A DNA stretch of 64,000 nt from Candidatus Heimdallarchaeota archaeon. GTDB lineage: Archaea > Asgardarchaeota > Heimdallarchaeia > Heimdallarchaeales > Heimdallarchaeaceae. The number at the start of each line of letters is the position of its first letter. The stretch's first letter is position 1. The notes under the pieces are model-generated. The model worked only from the letters and a program-made list of their open reading frames with translations, was not told where the DNA came from and did no database searches. The translations under genes were made by a program, and so were the position numbers. The stretch covers positions 32,001-96,000 of the forward strand of contig JAHLWR010000007.1 of NCBI GenBank assembly GCA_019057815.1. Direction: 5' to 3'. Positions 10,026 to 59,062 of the stretch are shown here, in pieces.

Positions 10026-10165
10026 GCAACAATTCAAACGGATAATTGAAACAGATGAAACTATAAGTTTCAGTATCTAGAATTTCAGCTTTTTGAAAAC
10101 TTCAAAGAATATGTAACCATACATTTAAAAATGTTTGAAGAATTTTATTTCTCGGAGATAATTCA

Positions 10166-10348
10166 ATGGCTGATCCAATCTTTATTCCGTCATTAGTATC
10201 AATGTTCATAACAATGGGATTTTTCGGTTTAGTTATATTCCTCCTTACTACAGGTGTGAGAACTTTAAACAGGAGAATATCGAACGTACGTTTGAGAAGG
10301 AAATTAACAGCAGCTAAGATGATTGGAGAGCAAAAAAAAGCTCTATAA
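10166..10348 (+). CDS. Small single-TM membrane protein
   Basis: GGAG upstream; hydrophobic segment followed by basic tail. Confidence 0.5.
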   Translation: MADPIFIPSLVSMFITMGFFGLVIFLLTTGVRTLNRRISNVRLRRKLTAAKMIGEQKKAL

Positions 10349-10442
10349 ATTGTTAGTTTTTTCTCAAAGCTATATTTAGTCCTACAGTCATGTTATAGGT
10401 GAGTTAATTTTTGTTTTAGCATAATTATATAAACCAGTGTGA

Positions 10443-10655
10443 GTGCTACAATTCATGAGTCTAGTGGGAATATTAAAAATTACTTTTGGTGTAATAATAG
10501 GAATCATGGTTTTTCCAATCGTTTTAGGTTTAGGTCTTGCTGTTTTAGCAGTTATACTTACTATCATAGTTGTTCTTAAGGTATTTAACATTATAACATT
10601 TCAGTTTTTACGCAAGAAAAAAATAACCAGTAAAGATTTCTCTATAAAAGAATAA
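10443..10655 (+). CDS. Small hydrophobic membrane protein
   Basis: Long hydrophobic stretch followed by basic tail. Confidence 0.45.
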   Translation: MLQFMSLVGILKITFGVIIGIMVFPIVLGLGLAVLAVILTIIVVLKVFNIITFQFLRKKKITSKDFSIKE

Positions 10656-10676
10656 AAGAAAGAAAAGAGAGTAGTA

Positions 10677-11996
10677 TTATTTTAATTTTGATTTTCTTAT
10701 TCTAATATAAACCAATATTAAAACAGGTAAAAGAACAGACAAATAAAATGGAGCGGAGTATGTTTTTTCTAGTTTTTCATTTAAGGCATATAAATCAATA
10801 GATTCCGCTGTTCCATTGATGTAATATTCGTGTGTGTCTCCGATATCAGACCAGTAATTTCCTTCTTCCTTACCTTCTTCAAACCAAACATTAGTAGTAC
10901 CGTCATCTTTTGCTTGCGATGCACCATCGATATTGTTTTCAATGAAAAAGTTATGATGAATAGAGTTTTCTTCTGATACATCAAGGCATGTAATCGCGTA
11001 TTCATCATTTTGATAGAATTTGTTGAAATAGAATTCTGATGTACTTGCTTCGATCATCATTCCTTGAATGTTTTCACAAATTGTGTTATTGAAAACTTCA
11101 TGGTCTGAACCTATAATTGTGATACCTCCTGCATTACTATTACATGTGTTATTGAAAATACGCGCTTCAGAAGTAATCACACGTATCCCTTCCAAGTTAT
11201 CAAAACAAGTGTTATTTTCAACATTTAAAGAAGAACTCGATGTTGAATAAATACCTATTCTGTTATTTGAACATATATTATTTATTACTTCACACATATA
11301 GCTATTATCTATTAAAATGCCATGAACTTTGCTGTATTCACAGGTATTATTTTCGAAAGTAGAAAGATCAGATTGCACTGCATATATCCCATATTCATTG
11401 TTACCTGCATAGTTATGCATCACTTTTGATCTAGCAGAATCGAGTATCTCTATTCCTTTATAGCAGTTCAAGAGAAGATTAAGAGTTACTTCACAGTAGA
11501 GAGAACTGAGAATTAGAATTCCATCTGTACAATCATAACATTCATTTTCTTCTATAATTGAGAGAGTAGATTCTTGATTCACTATTCCAGCAACACAATC
11601 CCAAAAGACATTCTGTTCAATTCTGGTATTCGAAGCGCTTGTTGCATTAACTACAATTCCATAATAACTTAAGGAGAAATAGCAATTCCTTACAATAAAA
11701 GACTTCGTGGTTCCTTCTATATAAACCCCATAAAATCCTGTATTAGTAAAATTATAACCTTCAATAATGTAGGGATCCTCTATTGTTCCTGAACCTGGAA
11801 AGACCTCAAAATCACTGTCTTGGACAATAATTAAAGGTTCATGAGTTACAAAGTTCAGATTGTTAATTATTCTTGAGCTTGAATTCTCGTGTGAATTAAC
11901 AGCAGTCGTGCTTTGACTAATAATAAATAATATAAATGCTGTTGAGAGCAAAAATATCTTCGTTCTTTTACTTTTGAATTTCAATTGGCATTTCAC
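10677..11996 (-). CDS. NosD/right-handed parallel beta-helix surface protein
   Basis: Signal peptide, GSGTIEDPYIIEGY, NNTC repeats, GNYWSD, C-terminal TM plus basic tail. Confidence 0.85.
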   Translation of the reverse strand: MKCQLKFKSKRTKIFLLSTAFILFIISQSTTAVNSHENSSSRIINNLNFVTHEPLIIVQDSDFEVFPGSGTIEDPYIIEGYNFTNTGFYGVYIEGTTKSFIVRNCYFSLSYYGIVVNATSASNTRIEQNVFWDCVAGIVNQESTLSIIEENECYDCTDGILILSSLYCEVTLNLLLNCYKGIEILDSARSKVMHNYAGNNEYGIYAVQSDLSTFENNTCEYSKVHGILIDNSYMCEVINNICSNNRIGIYSTSSSSLNVENNTCFDNLEGIRVITSEARIFNNTCNSNAGGITIIGSDHEVFNNTICENIQGMMIEASTSEFYFNKFYQNDEYAITCLDVSEENSIHHNFFIENNIDGASQAKDDGTTNVWFEEGKEEGNYWSDIGDTHEYYINGTAESIDLYALNEKLEKTYSAPFYLSVLLPVLILVYIRIRKSKLK

Positions 11997-25215: not shown

Positions 25216-26751
25216 TCAAGTGTTTTTTTGACCAAAAAATCCTCCACGTGCCCATGAATCAACATATCTCCTAATAAAATAAGCCCAATTATTATCTTTA
25301 TCTATTTTATAAGGTCCTTGATCATTTACATTTTCATACTTGTGTGCTTGTTTATAGGGTTTGTGAAAAGACAGCATAGCCCTCTCAAATTGTCCGAAAA
25401 GTTCAGGATAACGGTTATTGAAACTTAAAGCTTCAGGAACAAGATAACGTAAATTTTCTAGGATATTAAAAATCTTCAAACTAGTAATTTTTGGATTTGT
25501 TACCAAATTTATTTCTATCTTAAACGTTTTTGATCCTGGGTTTGTTTCCACAAGTTTAATATCTATAGCTCGTAAGTCTGTAGGTCTTATACTAGGTGGT
25601 ATATATGTTGATTTTCTATCTTTAATAAATGAACAATAATCGTCTAATTTTTCAATCATACCTATAATTTCTACGGTGTCAATAATTTCTTGGTCAGATA
25701 TTCCTTTTAAAGATAGATAAAATCTCGTCGGACTACTTTTACACGGTGAATCATTTCGAAGGCCTTTAAAAACTAACTCTAAAGCATCTCTAGCGGTTGT
25801 TAAACCTAGTCCCCTTCCGTTATCAAGAGAGTTAATAAGGTTCATTAAAGCGAAATCTTTGAAATTTTTATTTGAGTCAAAAGCAGTTGTAGGCCATACT
25901 ACTTCCGAAGTACCTATTATATTTCCGCCTAATTTTTCAATAAGGGATAATAAAGTGTTTCGTTCACATCTAATCCCATCCTCCCCTATGCTAAAAACTC
26001 TTTTTCCTTCCTTTCCTTTTTCTACGAAGAAAATTTTAACACTTGCACCACTTTCTAGTATTACCATCATGTCTTTTTTTAATGCAATTTTGAGATAGTC
26101 ATTACCTTCAAAATGGGCGTCAATGCGGTCATATAGTATTTTTCTAGCATCTATTAACTTATCAGCGTTAATATTCTCTTTTATGTTATTAACAAAATCA
26201 ACGTTGTTTTTTTTGTTTATCGCATCTCTGAAATCTTTATAGAAATAGTTCTGTTTAAGGCATTCGTAATAAGTTTCTCTAATGTGTGTGTGTAGAAGAT
26301 TGAGCCTATTGGGTCTGAACCTTGAATTATAAGGTTGGTATTTTTTTATTATATCTCTTAGGGAAACACTAGGGTCTTTAATATCTTTATGTATATAGCG
26401 TGTATGAATATCAGTTATCAAAGAGCTTTGAAAGTAATCTATAGCGTCAGCAGCATTTGTACGATAACGCCAAGGATCAGTTTCTTCACCTAGTAGATTT
26501 GCCTCTTTGAGTCTTATATATGCTCCGTCACCCCCCATAACAACTTTCCTAGCGTTAGTATTTTCTTTGAAGGCATTAGTTAAGAAATCCATATGTTTAT
26601 CATAAAGACTAATAGCATCATCAAGGTCTAATATAGATGAGTCCATAACATTACAGTGTTTGTAACCAAGATAAAAAGGATTGAAGATTCTTTCATACAC
26701 TTCTGTTTCGGTATCAATATCAAACTTGGGAGTGATTTTAGTATACTGGTT
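25216..26751 (-). CDS. Hypothetical soluble protein, probably 5'-truncated
   Basis: Frame stays open upstream of the GTG at 26700 until a stop at 26752-26754; no recognisable family. Confidence 0.6.
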   Translation of the reverse strand, partial: NQYTKITPKFDIDTETEVYERIFNPFYLGYKHCNVMDSSILDLDDAISLYDKHMDFLTNAFKENTNARKVVMGGDGAYIRLKEANLLGEETDPWRYRTNAADAIDYFQSSLITDIHTRYIHKDIKDPSVSLRDIIKKYQPYNSRFRPNRLNLLHTHIRETYYECLKQNYFYKDFRDAINKKNNVDFVNNIKENINADKLIDARKILYDRIDAHFEGNDYLKIALKKDMMVILESGASVKIFFVEKGKEGKRVFSIGEDGIRCERNTLLSLIEKLGGNIIGTSEVVWPTTAFDSNKNFKDFALMNLINSLDNGRGLGLTTARDALELVFKGLRNDSPCKSSPTRFYLSLKGISDQEIIDTVEIIGMIEKLDDYCSFIKDRKSTYIPPSIRPTDLRAIDIKLVETNPGSKTFKIEINLVTNPKITSLKIFNILENLRYLVPEALSFNNRYPELFGQFERAMLSFHKPYKQAHKYENVNDQGPYKIDKDNNWAYFIRRYVDSWARGGFFGQKNT

Positions 26752-56098: not shown

Positions 56099-56506
56099 TC
56101 ATTTATCGAAAAATTGTTCTCTTATAGGTTTAAAGTCTAGATATTTGTGATAAACTTGTTCCTTAAATTGAGCTAATAATCCCCTATTTTTACAAACTAT
56201 TTTTTTTCCTTTTAATATTGCATATTGAAATTGTATTGGAGAATCATTGACAATTTTCACGTCACATTCATAATTTACTACCTTTGTAAGTTCAATCGAA
56301 AGCTCTTTCTCTAACCCTTTGTCTATTTCCTGATTGCTATCGTCTTTTACAAAAATACCTATATCTATATCTCTGAAATAATTAGCATTGATAAAACTAC
56401 CATGAATATAAGCAAAGTTTATATTTCTATTTTCAGTAAGTAGATGACTTATAGCTGTTATTATTTCTGCTTTTTCATTATCTTCTAAACTATGAAAGGT
56501 TTGCAT
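56099..56506 (-). CDS. MntA-like minimal nucleotidyltransferase antitoxin
   Basis: AYIHGSF...RDIDIG; ATG at 56506 is adjacent to the HEPN stop. Confidence 0.85.
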   Translation of the reverse strand: MQTFHSLEDNEKAEIITAISHLLTENRNINFAYIHGSFINANYFRDIDIGIFVKDDSNQEIDKGLEKELSIELTKVVNYECDVKIVNDSPIQFQYAILKGKKIVCKNRGLLAQFKEQVYHKYLDFKPIREQFFDK

Positions 56507-56507
56507 A

Positions 56508-56948
56508 CTAATTCTCCAATAGTTGTTTAATATCTTTAATAAATTCAAGAATAAAAGAATGATCAATCTGCGCTATTTCGTATATTTTTTCATCGTCGAT
56601 TATCCAATATTGATGAATTAAGATATTTCTAAATTGTATCATTTTAACCATTTTTTCAATTAATGTATTTGAGGATATTCCTAGTTCTGCTAGTCTTCTG
56701 AAACAATCAGCATATGTTGAAGGAGGAGAAACTTCTGACCTTGAAATAATGTGATTGCATAAAGATACTAAACCTTCAATCAAAGAAAGTAACCTATATT
56801 TTAACGCATCTTTTCTAATATCATCTTTAAGAAATTCTTCAAAGGTTAAATTCTTCAAATAATCAATTTGGTTTATTCTTTGTTCAACATCTACAATTCG
56901 GTCTAACATAAAATCCTTATTGATCTCCTTCTTATCCAAATAGCTCAA
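56508..56948 (-). CDS. HepT/DUF86 HEPN RNase toxin
   Basis: FRNILIHQY (RX4HXY). Confidence 0.85.
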   Translation of the reverse strand: MSYLDKKEINKDFMLDRIVDVEQRINQIDYLKNLTFEEFLKDDIRKDALKYRLLSLIEGLVSLCNHIISRSEVSPPSTYADCFRRLAELGISSNTLIEKMVKMIQFRNILIHQYWIIDDEKIYEIAQIDHSFILEFIKDIKQLLEN

Positions 56949-58134
56949 CTCCTTGTTTTATTGATAGGTTCTTATCTTAAATAATTTTGCGCAATAATGT
57001 CCTTTAATCACGATTAGTTTACTCCTATATATAAAGTATAAAAATTCATACTAAGAAACTATAATCTGCTAAATCGATTAAATTGAAGATGTTCGAGATG
57101 TTCATAGAAATCTTTCCCAAGGACAACAAATGAGAGTCTATTAAATCAGTTCCTTATTTATTTTTCAATTGGGAGGTTGATTTTCTTATTTTATTCTTGT
57201 CATAATCAAAGAGCATCGTGTTTATTATTTTTCTTCATGACTCTTAATTTCTTTCGCTTCTTTCAAAAAAGTACAAAAAAAAAGGCGAAATAAACTATTT
57301 ATTTCGTTTTTTAATATAAATTGAAACTGTTCCTAGAAATGCTAACATTAAGGGTATTGCAATGAAACCTAAACTTCCTTCATCTGTTGGTGTTGGAGGT
57401 ATCAATTCTTTAGCTGTAGTAGCTATATATTCCACTAAATCTTTAGTTTTTCCATGAAAACCTTCTCCAAAAAAACCTTGATTGGTAAAAACAATTAATC
57501 CCATGTTAGCTTTAGTTAACATATAAGCAGCACCAATCCAATTTCCCCATGTTAATCCGTGATAACCTTTGTTTAAGGCATTATTGTTCCAACCAAGACC
57601 ATAATTTTTATCAACAGTGGTATGCATTAGTTGTATAGTGGATTCTTCTAGAATTCTTACTGTATCGTAAACTCCATTGTTCATATGAGCTATGAGGAAT
57701 TTAGATAAATCTACAACAGTAGATAGTATTCTTACAGAACCAGGCCCAGGATAATCTTTGAAACTCTGTTCTTCATTTACTCCAGAGGCTGAATTCCATA
57801 TATATTGTTTAGCTAGTTGACTAAGTGTGTAGTTTGTATAAGTGAATTCAGTATTAGTCATTCCTAAAGGAGTAAAAATATTGTTCTTAACGTATTGTTC
57901 ATATGGTTCGCCGGATATTAGTTCAACTAAGAAAGCTATTAAGTCATAATAAAGCCAAGAAAATATACGAACTGTTCCTGGTACAAGATACAACCATGAG
58001 TCAATAGTATAATCTAAACCGTTCTCATTAAACACTTCGTAGAGGAAATCTGGAAACGGATAAAGATCATTATAAAAAACTTCGTGCTGTTCATCGGATG
58101 ATCCTATCCCTGCTCGTTGAGAAAGTAAATCATG

Positions 58135-58483
58135 AGTTATTTTTCCCACTTTACCCACTTAAGGGTAGTGGTAAATAATTTTGAGGACTCTTCCCAACCC
58201 AAGAACGTACAAGGTAGCGTTGCATCAAGCAGTAGCGTATGGGAGCTTCAAGCTCTGGGATTACACCTCCAACACACAGTGTTAGCGGAGGTGAGGGGGG
58301 TCATCTCCTCCCCGGGACTCATTACTGAAGACAGTGTTATTGAGAACCTTAGGTTCTCACTCCAGCTCCGGGTGTAAGCAGATGACTCTGCTTTGTCTCT
58401 AGCCATTGGCTTAAGACAGTACTAATACTAGACTTTCCTATAAAAAGCTAACAGAAATATGGGGAAAATGGGGAAAAACAACC
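58135..58483. mobile_element. MITE-like non-autonomous element with ~25-bp imperfect TIRs and 3-bp TSD (ATG)
   Basis: atg[agttatttttcccactttacccact ... tatggggaaaatggggaaaaacaacc]atg; GC-rich interior with many hairpins. Confidence 0.85.
58183..58435 (+). ncRNA. Candidate structured RNA inside the MITE
   Basis: Hairpins cacctcc/ggaggtg, gagggg/ctcctc, tgagaacc/ggttctca, aagcaga/tctgctt, tgtct..agcc/ggct..agaca; mismatches are G-U on the + strand. Confidence 0.45.
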
Positions 58484-59062
58484 ATGTATTGTTATATCTA
58501 TGCTAGGATAGTAAGGATTCCTAAGTATCCAAGGTAGATGATCATTCACAGAATCGTTCATTTCAAATAGTCCGTCATCCATGAGCTGTAAAAGAGCTGT
58601 TGTAGCAACAACACCACTTATCATTGATATATAATAAACAATATCTGTCCCTGGTTGTTCACCATAACCTGTTGAATAATATTCTTCAGTTCCATTAATA
58701 GCACATAGAGCTAAGGATTCTACCTTAGCTGTATTCATAAGAACTTCAACTTGAGTATCAAATTCAGCATCGAATATATCTGTAGGAGCAATTGTAACTG
58801 CTTTAGAAGGTGAGAGTATTGTAGATAACATAAGGGTAGTCAAAATAAAACTGAAAAAGACAATTTTTCTTAAGTGTTTTTTCTTCATATTTTTCACCAT
58901 TAAATAATTTTTCACCATTAGATATTACGTGTTCTTTTCTAATGAAATATTGGACGAGTTCTTTTCGGGAGTATTTTGAGACCATTTCAAGATTATTTAT
59001 TCTATCACTCTCTCTCCTTTTTTTGAAAGTGCGACTTTTTGAGTAGAGAAAAAAGAAAGTAA

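What the first reader, a model, noticed from the sequence alone, without database searches (positions are those of the whole stretch)
58135..58483. 349-bp TIR/TSD element whose interior looks like a folded RNA with complementary loops
Seen: a clean insertion (ATG duplicated; excision restores ITIH-DLLS) with ~25-bp TIRs built from two (T)TTTCCC-like units. The interior is much more GC-rich than the host and has at least 7 stems. Long-range pairings include ttacacc 58261/ggtgtaa 58371 and cccggg/tccggg. Two hairpin loops are complementary (gtca ~58300 and tgac ~58383, extendable to gggtcatct/agatgactc). Internal mismatches are G-U on the + strand, antisense to the host gene. Inference: not just a deleted IS but a non-autonomous element carrying a functional RNA (guide, bridge or omega-like, or a ribozyme) mobilised in trans.
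Basis: partly seen in the sequence, partly recalled or inferred. Interest (0 to 1): 0.72.

Follow-up and report, generated by a model that had tools for sequence, protein, structure and literature searches.

The report
Gene-less TnpB guide-RNA mini-transposon
The 349-base insert is a stripped-down copy of a small jumping element of a Heimdall (Asgard) archaeon that kept only its two mirror-image ends, a promoter and the folded guide RNA of the RNA-guided nuclease TnpB; such guide-only elements are known, but this family's mirror-image ends and its missing transposase are unusual.

Summary
The insertion is real. Removing 58135-58483 plus one ATG restores a 425-aa beta-lactamase-family ORF. The genome (Heimdallarchaeon, 3.7 Mb) holds 6 such about 348-bp copies and 5 full-length 1.77-kb parents. 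The parents encode only TnpB, intact in 3, on the window's minus strand.

The mini-element is an internal deletion. It keeps 58 bp of the left end (TIR plus TATA box) and 285 bp of the right end, which is the last 70 nt of tnpB plus 215 nt. That right-end part is the TnpB omegaRNA. Evidence for this:
- 13 helices, with 12 pairs showing compensatory changes against 2.9 in shuffles.
- A guide-adjacent long-range helix (AUGAGU/ACUCAU) that covaries in relatives.
- G-U intermediates only on the minus strand.

Its strand call and its two special pairings are not supported.

All copies, and relatives with 44-63% identical TnpB, are flanked by CAT on both sides. Their 25-bp TIRs have repeat units that change together at both ends from lineage to lineage. 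I found no transposase with matching ends, including in two closed relatives. How the family moves stays open.

Guide-only omegaRNA elements are already published. Earlier follow-ups in this scan reached the same reading on other copies of this family.

The parts
58135..58483 (-). Whole mini-element (349 bp), written in the orientation of the parent's tnpB (minus strand): LE 58483->58426, deletion joint about 58425-58420, RE part 58419->58135
   Evidence: Six copies of about 348 bp (342-350 bp) and five 1.77-kb parents in the genome. Bases 1-285 and 292-349 of the + strand match the two ends of the parents.
58132..58134 (.). Flanking ATG (CAT on the minus strand) next to the right end. On the RNA it is the last three bases (CAU) of the scaffold.
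   Evidence: CAT follows the RE in all 25 distinct RE junctions that were collected by a pattern requiring a terminal CAT, and in the unfiltered alignment of 11 genome copies. It pairs with the internal AUG in the long-range helix.
58484..58486 (.). Flanking ATG (CAT on the minus strand) next to the left end: the target/TAM-side copy
   Evidence: CAT precedes the LE in all copies. The base before it is never T in 16 hand-picked sites, whereas the RE ends TCAT.
58460..58483 (.). Left-end terminal inverted repeat (two GGGGAAAA units on the + strand)
   Evidence: The units covary with the RE TIR in related lineages.
58135..58158 (.). Right-end terminal inverted repeat. Its inner unit is also the 3' arm of the last omegaRNA hairpin.
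58439..58446 (-). TTTTTATA box of the parent's tnpB promoter (inferred). The predicted start is about 25 nt downstream, at the deletion joint, so that it drives the omegaRNA in the mini-element.
   Evidence: The box is conserved at the same place in all copies and in family D. Promoter function is inferred from the archaeal TATA consensus, not tested.
58349..58419 (-). Remnant of the last about 70 nt of tnpB including its stop codon (TAA = 58351->58349). It also forms the first omegaRNA hairpins.
58132..58419 (-). omegaRNA scaffold (about 288 nt, 5' 58419 -> 3' 58132)
   Evidence: Consensus fold of 21 family members gives 70 pairs in 13 helices, 97.5% paired. Twelve pairs have compensatory changes against 2.9 +/- 1.2 in shuffles and 2-5 in slid controls.
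58317..58322 (-). Internal AUGAGU, partner of the scaffold's 3' end ACUCAU (58137->58132): a guide-adjacent long-range helix, counterpart of the TnpB/Cas12 pseudoknot
   Evidence: The helix covaries. It reads AUGAUU/AAUCAU in family B and AUAAGU/ACUUAU in L027. It is unchanged in group C and family D. ISDra2 pairs -5..-3 with -103..-105 (PMC10097598).
58112..58131 (-). Predicted guide (GATTTACTTTCTCAACGAGC), which is host-gene sequence just outside the right end
   Evidence: This position is unrelated between copies. Guide length and use are inferred by analogy with ISDra2.
57295..58134 (-). C-terminal part of the disrupted host gene (beta-lactamase-family serine hydrolase)
58484..58918 (-). 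N-terminal part of the disrupted host gene

Best explanation
The element is a protein-less deletion derivative (MITE / PATE-like 'stand-alone omegaRNA' element) of a 1.77-kb TnpB-only transposon family of a Heimdallarchaeon.

Shown:
- It shares both ends with the parents and lacks the tnpB body.
- It inserted cleanly at a CAT inside a hydrolase gene.
- The retained 285-nt right-end block is the region downstream of, and overlapping, the tnpB stop codon.
- That block has a conserved, covarying secondary structure whose 3' end abuts the element boundary.

Inferred:
- The block is the omegaRNA, transcribed from the minus strand by the parent's own TATA promoter, which the deletion brought right in front of it.
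- The RNA reads on into the flanking 16-20 nt, which become the guide.
- TnpB made by the three intact parents (contigs C10, C39, C40) loads this RNA in trans. It would cut the empty site (non-T + CAT followed by the guide match) whenever the mini-element is lost, so that recombination with a filled copy restores it.
- The RE ends TCAT while targets are (A/G/C)CAT. This would spare the occupied site.

Open: movement itself needs an enzyme that recognises the 25-bp TIRs and joins at CAT (a 3-bp duplication or a shared 2-bp crossover core). That enzyme is not identified.
For: - Copies and parents.
- Parents encode only TnpB (PF07282, NF040570), intact in 3 of 5.
- RuvC-I GIDLG, the zinc ribbon and NADxN RuvC-III align to solved TnpB/Cas12f.
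- Clean insertion.
- Structure: the consensus fold is -68.7 kcal/mol on the tnpB strand against -51.6 on the other. It has 12 compensatory pairs against 2.9 in shuffles, 0/500.
- Compensation inside the mini-element lineage itself: C-G goes to U-G (C36 copy) and then U-A (C9 and C38 copies) at columns 37/48.
- In the 12 covarying pairs there are 28 G-U cells on the minus strand and 0 A-C cells.
- The guide-adjacent helix covaries in family B and in L027, as expected of the conserved TnpB/Cas12 pseudoknot (PMC10097598).
- Group C relatives have the same closing helix and 15 of 45 pairs with compensatory changes.
- Flanks after CAT are unrelated between copies.
- Published precedent exists: stand-alone mobilised omegaRNAs acting in trans, and PATE-like omegaRNA elements (PMC10691335; PMC10055086).
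Against: - There is no expression data. Promoter, RNA ends, guide length and TAM are all inferred.
- The mini-element copies are 92-93% alike, so much of the structure conservation among them is recency. The covariation comes mostly from the few divergent members.
- In helices predicted on both strands the G-U/A-C tally is neutral (10 against 8).
- The TnpB lacks the canonical RuvC-II glutamate (VVVGFP, read by eye). It is presumed active only by analogy with the rearranged clades of PMC10691335.
- CAT also ends the RE, so self-avoidance rests on a single position (-4).
- No Rfam family matches.
Confidence: 0.85

Rival explanations
1. Inert relic. The mini-element is only a decaying deletion product whose RNA is no longer made or used, and its fold is inherited from the parent without present function.
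For: Copies are only 7-8% diverged. One related genome holds a still shorter derivative lacking most of the scaffold (L039). There is no expression evidence.
Against: All six copies, plus copies in two other genomes (G016 and G017, genus g3), share one deletion joint that sets the TATA box in front of the scaffold. A C-G to U-G to U-A compensation arose within the mini-element lineage. Six independent insertions show it was mobilised after the deletion.
Confidence: 0.1
2. A plus-strand structured RNA (bridge/seek RNA for a recombinase, or a ribozyme), antisense to the host gene, with kissing loops.
For: The plus strand of this one copy folds as well as the minus strand (-115.9 against -116.9 kcal/mol). 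The loop complementarity is present in the close copies.
Against: The parent carries tnpB on the minus strand and no IS110-type gene. The consensus fold is 17 kcal/mol weaker on the plus strand. G-U intermediates would be A-C mismatches on the plus strand. Both proposed special pairings fail in divergent members. There is no Rfam hit.
Confidence: 0.03
3. IStron-like element. The insert is spliced out of the host mRNA, in which it lies in sense, so that the hydrolase gene still works.
For: The insert has the same orientation as the host gene. TnpB elements with group I introns exist in bacteria (PMC13521648, abstract only).
Against: No group I or II intron or any ribozyme model matches, even at E<=10. 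The fold is explained by omegaRNA features. Other copies sit in unrelated contexts and orientations.
Confidence: 0.02

Closest known systems
Stand-alone mobilised omegaRNAs and PATE-like protein-less IS200/IS605 elements (Altae-Tran 2021 as summarised in PMC10691335; Meers 2023, PMC10055086)
   Same: A protein-less element bounded by the ends of a TnpB transposon. It keeps the omegaRNA scaffold at the right end with the guide just outside, occurs in several copies beside effector-encoding copies, and depends on TnpB and a transposase in trans.
   Different: The ends are 25-bp terminal inverted repeats with CAT on both sides, not asymmetric hairpin ends. No Y1 TnpA with matching ends exists. 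The host is an Asgard archaeon.
IS1341-group (tnpB-only) members of IS200/IS605, e.g. the hairpin-ended TnpB-only copies in this same genome
   Same: A single tnpB gene with the omegaRNA overlapping its 3' end and reaching the right end, in multiple copies.
   Different: The canonical copies here have subterminal hairpins, an RE ending TAGTTCA and ends like the resident Y1 TnpA element. The family studied has true TIRs, no LE hairpin and CAT junctions.
DDE-transposase-associated TnpB elements with inverted terminal repeats (IS630-linked 'DDE' branches, PMC10691335) and eukaryotic Fanzor-carrying TIR transposons (PMC3627910)
   Same: TnpB-family nuclease inside an element with symmetric ends. 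The tnpB 3' end lies within about 250 bp of an end.
   Different: No DDE gene lies in or near the element. No IS630-type DDE_3 or DDE_Tnp_4 gene was found in the genome. The four DDE_Tnp_1 elements have unrelated TIRs. The flank is CAT, not TA.
IS607 family (serine-recombinase TnpA + TnpB)
   Same: Double-strand, seamless joining at a short core shared by both junctions would give the look of a 2-3-bp duplication. TnpB and the right-end omegaRNA are present.
   Different: Published IS607 elements have no TIRs. The IS607-like family of this genome has asymmetric ends (ACCGTCGTCC... / ...AACGTGCGT) and no CAT.

Membership tests
TnpB omegaRNA (OMEGA guide RNA) | Encoded at the 3' end of tnpB, overlapping the coding end and running to the transposon right end, on the tnpB strand | tested here: met
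   In the parents the tnpB stop lies 215 nt from the RE. The mini-element keeps exactly this block plus 70 nt of coding sequence. The strand is supported by the consensus energy and by G-U-only intermediates.
TnpB omegaRNA (OMEGA guide RNA) | Conserved scaffold structure supported by covariation | tested here: met
   Twelve of 70 pairs are compensatory against 2.9 in shuffles, 0/500. Group C shows 15 of 45.
TnpB omegaRNA (OMEGA guide RNA) | Pseudoknot-type long-range pairing of the bases just 5' of the guide | tested here: met
   AUGAGU/ACUCAU closes the scaffold. There are two independent compensatory variants. The three-dimensional pseudoknot itself cannot be shown from sequence.
TnpB omegaRNA (OMEGA guide RNA) | Guide lies outside the element and differs between copies | tested here: met
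   Sequences after CAT are unrelated in all distinct insertions.
TnpB omegaRNA (OMEGA guide RNA) | RNA is expressed, bound by TnpB and directs TAM-dependent cleavage | not testable with these tools
   No transcriptome or biochemistry is available.
IS200/IS605 (Y1 HUH, peel-and-paste) | Subterminal hairpins at both ends on one strand, no TIRs | tested here: not met
   The RE has a hairpin, but the LE has none that is conserved. The ends are true inverted repeats.
IS200/IS605 (Y1 HUH, peel-and-paste) | A Y1 TnpA element with matching ends able to act in trans | tested here: not met
   The two Y1 TnpA elements have different, hairpin-type ends and an RE ending TTCAAA.
IS607 (serine recombinase) | Serine TnpA in the element or in a relative with the same ends | tested here: not met
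   The six resolvase-domain genes comprise three IS607-type TnpA genes and three resolvase-like ORFs in other contexts. The IS607-like family has unrelated asymmetric ends.
Classical MITE of a DDE transposon | TIRs, short target duplication, no coding capacity, many copies | tested here: met
   Whether CAT is a true duplication or a shared core cannot be told from sequence.
Classical MITE of a DDE transposon | Autonomous parent with the same TIRs encoding a transposase | tested here: not met
   The only longer elements with these TIRs encode TnpB alone. The same holds for family B in two closed genomes.
IS110/IS1111 bridge or seek RNA | Structured RNA next to a DEDD recombinase gene; element without TIRs | tested here: not met
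   The parent encodes TnpB only. TIRs are present. There is no Rfam match.
Group I/II intron or other ribozyme | Match to a catalytic RNA model | tested here: not met
   cmscan at E<=10 gave only two chance-level snoRNA/U4 hits outside or across the boundary.

The most novel reading that the evidence does not exclude
The TIR-bounded, TnpB-only elements may be autonomous. The RuvC-rearranged TnpB, alone or with the 3' part of its omegaRNA, would itself recognise the two ends and move the element. That RNA segment is identical to the RE TIR and complementary to the LE TIR.

Grounds:
- The TIR repeat unit changes at both ends together from lineage to lineage: TTTTCCCCAC here, TTTCCGAC in family D, TTTTTTACGTAA in family B. 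The CAT junction stays the same.
- Each lineage's only gene is tnpB.
- No other element with these ends exists in this genome or in the two closed Heimdallarchaeum genomes.

A lost, plasmid- or virus-borne, or host-encoded transposase explains the same facts more simply.
Probability: 0.07. Interest if true: 0.9.

Novelty: new variant of a known kind. Interest (0 to 1): 0.4.

Why it matters
Guide-only TnpB elements are already known, so the mini-element itself is a clear new example and not a new system.

What is less ordinary is the family it belongs to. This is an Asgard-restricted TnpB clade whose elements have symmetric inverted-repeat ends and a fixed CAT junction. The end motifs co-evolve lineage by lineage, and no transposase can be found even in closed genomes. 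Three consequences follow:
- It bears on the old question of how the very abundant tnpB-only elements move.
- It offers a prokaryotic parallel to eukaryotic Fanzor genes, which ride in TIR transposons.
- It gives a compact, testable TnpB/omegaRNA pair with a predicted short TAM (non-T + CAT).

Tried and rejected
- Rfam at E<=10 over 57900-58700 gave nothing meaningful.
- Search for a partner with the same TIRs: a pattern scan of the own genome and of five relatives, and a family-B TIR scan of two closed genomes. Only TnpB-only elements, mini-elements and solo ends turned up.
- Candidate transposases in the own genome:
  - Y1 TnpA has different hairpin ends.
  - Serine recombinases: the IS607-like family has asymmetric ends.
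  - Cas1: two loci are CRISPR-linked and one is a broken gene.
  - IS630 DDE_3 and Harbinger DDE_Tnp_4: none found.
  - IS4/IS5 DDE_Tnp_1: four genes with unrelated TIRs.
- Abutted RE-CAT-LE junctions (tandem or circle-like): none in the genome.
- TIR and LE boundary of the single divergent copies L027 and L034 could not be fixed.
- Structure-aware alignment across families (mafft-qinsi) was not installed, so the families were folded separately.
- P0018's contig could not be read because the file was too large.
- The ttacacc/ggtgtaa and loop-loop pairings were tested and rejected.
- The neighbour genes of distant relatives (a 910-aa ATPase and a >=1654-aa protein) were looked at as possible transposases. 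They were left as side notes.

Full report
**The observation.** The element occupies 58135-58483 and is flanked by ATG on both sides. It sits in a minus-strand gene. Cutting out the 349 bp plus one ATG gives one open frame of 425 aa reading ...SIDITIHDLLSQRAG.... The two halves match Pfam Beta-lactamase at profile positions 2-86 and 98-313, so the insertion is clean. The interior is 46-51% G+C in a 27-35% neighbourhood (genome 32.8%). Both strands of this copy fold better than shuffles, with z -3.9 and -4.5. Rfam gives nothing, even at E<=10.

**Copies and parent.** The assembly is 3.74 Mb in 48 contigs. Relatives are named Candidatus Heimdallarchaeota. It holds six copies of about 348 bp, five copies of 1.76-1.77 kb and one end fragment.
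- Plus-strand bases 1-285 and 292-349 of the mini-element match the two ends of the long copies.
- The long copies encode a single protein on the opposite strand. It is a 492-aa TnpB (PF07282; NF040570 below its cut-off), intact in C10, C39 and C40 and frameshifted in C26 and C30.
- It aligns to solved TnpB/Cas12f over RuvC-I (GIDLG), the zinc ribbon and a NADxN RuvC-III.
- By eye, the canonical RuvC-II glutamate is a glycine (VVVGFP) and a conserved glutamate precedes the zinc ribbon (GESWTS). This matches the 'rearranged' clades described in PMC10691335. That last point is an inference.

**What the mini-element kept.** The description below uses tnpB orientation, which is the window's minus strand.
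- It keeps 58 bp of the left end: the TIR and a TTTTTATA box.
- After a 6-bp joint it keeps 285 bp of the right end: the last about 70 nt of tnpB, its stop codon, and 215 nt down to the boundary.
- The TATA box is conserved in all copies and in a 63%-identical family.
- With the usual archaeal spacing, transcription would start at the deletion joint, at the first hairpin of the retained block. This promoter reading is inferred.

**The RNA.** I aligned 21 distinct right-end regions: 11 from this genome, 8 from related genomes, and the two divergent copies L027 and L034.
- The consensus fold has 70 pairs in 13 helices, 97.5% paired.
- Twelve pairs have changes on both sides, against 2.9 +/- 1.2 in column shuffles (0 of 500 as high) and 2-5 when partners are slid.
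- The consensus energy is -68.7 kcal/mol on the tnpB strand and -51.6 on the other.
- In helices that both strands predict, the G-U/A-C tally is neutral, 10 against 8. In the 12 covarying pairs every one-sided intermediate is G-U on the minus strand: 28 cells against no A-C.
- One compensation happened inside the mini-element lineage. Columns 37/48 are C-G in most copies, U-G in the C36 copy, and U-A in the C9 and C38 copies.
- The strand call therefore rests on context (the tnpB strand, with the scaffold ending at the right end), consensus energy and these intermediates.

**The guide-adjacent helix.** The last six bases before the flank (ACUCAU, including the flanking CAU) pair with AUGAGU about 190 nt upstream and close the whole scaffold (helix 6).
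- Family B (TnpB 43-44% identical, from closed genomes named Ca. Heimdallarchaeum aukensis and endolithica) has AUGAUU/AAUCAU.
- L027 (64% identical) has AUAAGU/ACUUAU once its end is shifted by three columns.
- Group C and family D keep AUGAGU/ACUCAU.
- In ISDra2 the bases -5 to -3 pair with -103 to -105 to form the pseudoknot conserved in all Cas12 guide RNAs (PMC10097598). The helix found here is its counterpart by position.
- Group C folded on its own shows the same closing helix and 15 of 45 pairs with compensatory changes.
- The sequences beyond CAT are unrelated between insertions, as expected of guides.

- ttacacc/ggtgtaa: the central pair is broken in 15 of 21 members, there is no compensation, and it overlaps a covarying hairpin.
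- Loop-loop complementarity: six pairs hold in the close copies, but L027 and L034 lose them while keeping the local hairpins, and a slide of three columns pairs as well.

**Ends and target.** All 11 copies here read (non-T)CAT | LE ... RE=...AACT | CAT(R).
- All 25 distinct RE junctions collected with a pattern that required the terminal CAT are followed by G (15), A (8), C (1) or T (1).
- In 16 LE junctions picked by hand from a loose pattern scan, the base before CAT is G, A or C and never T, in a genome with 34% T.
- The RE itself ends TCAT. This fits a TAM of the form non-T + CAT that spares the occupied site. That reading is an inference.
- A 4-bp duplication is excluded, because copies with CATA at the RE side still have CATG at the LE side.
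- Whether CAT is a 3-bp duplication or a shared crossover core cannot be told from sequence.

**The TIRs.** The TIRs are real, and they co-evolve between the two ends.

| Lineage | LE | Reverse complement of RE |
|---|---|---|
| This family | GGTTGTTTTTCCCCACTTTTCCCAC | GAGTTATTTTCCCCACTTTTCCCAG |
| Family D | GACTAATTTTTCCGACTTTTCCCGAC | GAGTTATGTTTCCGACCTGTTCCGAC |
| Family B | GCGTCTATTTTTTACGTA... | GATTTACTTTTTTACGTA... |

The CAT junction is the same in all three lineages.

**Who moves it.** I found no partner.
- The TIR motif occurs only in this family in the own genome and in five relatives.
- In the two closed genomes the family-B motif pairs up only around TnpB-only elements.
- The resident Y1 TnpA element, and a TnpB-only group like it, have classical hairpin ends.
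- The IS607-like family (serine TnpA plus a 652-aa TnpB) has asymmetric ends and its own mini-elements.
- Of the three Cas1 loci, two belong to CRISPR loci and one is a broken gene.
- No IS630-type or Harbinger-type DDE gene was found, and the four IS4/IS5-type elements have unrelated TIRs.
- No abutted RE-CAT-LE junction exists.
- The assembly is 95% complete, so a missing or extrachromosomal transposase cannot be excluded.

**Comparison with what is known.** Stand-alone, mobilised omegaRNAs that work in trans, and PATE-like omegaRNA elements, are published (PMC10691335; PMC10055086). TnpBs associated with DDE transposases have inverted ends (PMC10691335). The mini-element is therefore a new example of a known kind. 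The family's TIR-plus-CAT architecture without any transposase, confined so far to Asgard archaea, is a variant not covered by the IS605, IS607 or IS630 descriptions I could read.

Earlier follow-ups in this scan reached the same reading on other copies of this family in this genome. I re-derived each point here.

**Verdict.** Interest is moderate. The open and more interesting question is the mobilising enzyme.

Noticed in passing
L104-L111 (metagenome contigs; element ends at e.g. L105 about 215 and about 1995): A recently active sister family (TnpB 63% identical, identical protein on 8 contigs with several different flanks). Its TIR unit is TTTCCGAC at both ends, and it has the same CAT junction, TATA box and closing helix. 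Some contigs combine flanks of different insertions, probably assembly chimeras across the repeat.
   Followed up: partly
L090 3343-6075 and 1477-3045 (G022); also L064, L068: TnpB homologues of 43-46% identity begin right after the stop codon (..TTGTCAT|AA) of a 910-aa membrane P-loop ATPase gene in three genomes. C-terminal fragments of that gene accompany other copies. No TIR was seen in this group.
   Followed up: partly
L097 3103-8064 (G362), likewise L070, L073, L078, L080: In family f31 relatives, whose closest database hits are named Thor- and Lokiarchaeota (TnpB 37-41% identical, 560-630 aa), the gene lies head-to-head with a very large ORF (>=1654 aa). That ORF carries a PD-(D/E)xK-like motif (GKIDLV...ILEVKT) and has no family assigned here.
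   Followed up: no
G000 C27:145854-148591; mini-elements at C8:42394-42767 and C1:35384-35757: An IS607-like family (MerR-type serine TnpA plus a 652-aa TnpB-like protein) with asymmetric ends, and its own about 370-bp protein-less derivatives that keep the right-end block.
   Followed up: partly
G000 C8:about 9950-11750 and C4:about 62370-64170; TnpB-only copies e.g. C4:58849, C38:12674: A canonical IS605 (Y1 TnpA + TnpB) with subterminal hairpins and an RE ending TAGTTCAAA. TnpB-only copies have the same end type. This is a useful internal contrast to the TIR family.
   Followed up: partly
G000 C12:about 126750-128150 and C1:about 95570-96970: Another TnpB-only family (419 aa) whose right end also reads ...AGCTCAT and whose ends share a TTTGTACAA-like inverted motif. 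It is possibly a further member of the TIR/CAT type.
   Followed up: no
G007 (Ca. Heimdallarchaeum endolithica), e.g. C1:499114, 798956, 1123995, 1129117: The 16-nt palindrome TTTTTTACGTAAAAAA, which contains the family-B TIR unit, recurs at 8 or more sites outside recognisable elements.
   Followed up: no
window 56099-56948 (-): Two overlapping small ORFs look by eye like a nucleotidyltransferase (MNT) / HEPN (FRNILIHQY) toxin-antitoxin pair.
   Followed up: no
G000 C19:about 25540-25590 and C27:90272-90313: Solo right-end fragments of the family (…GTGGGAAAAATAATTCAT|G; 42-bp RE tip) without the rest of an element.
   Followed up: no
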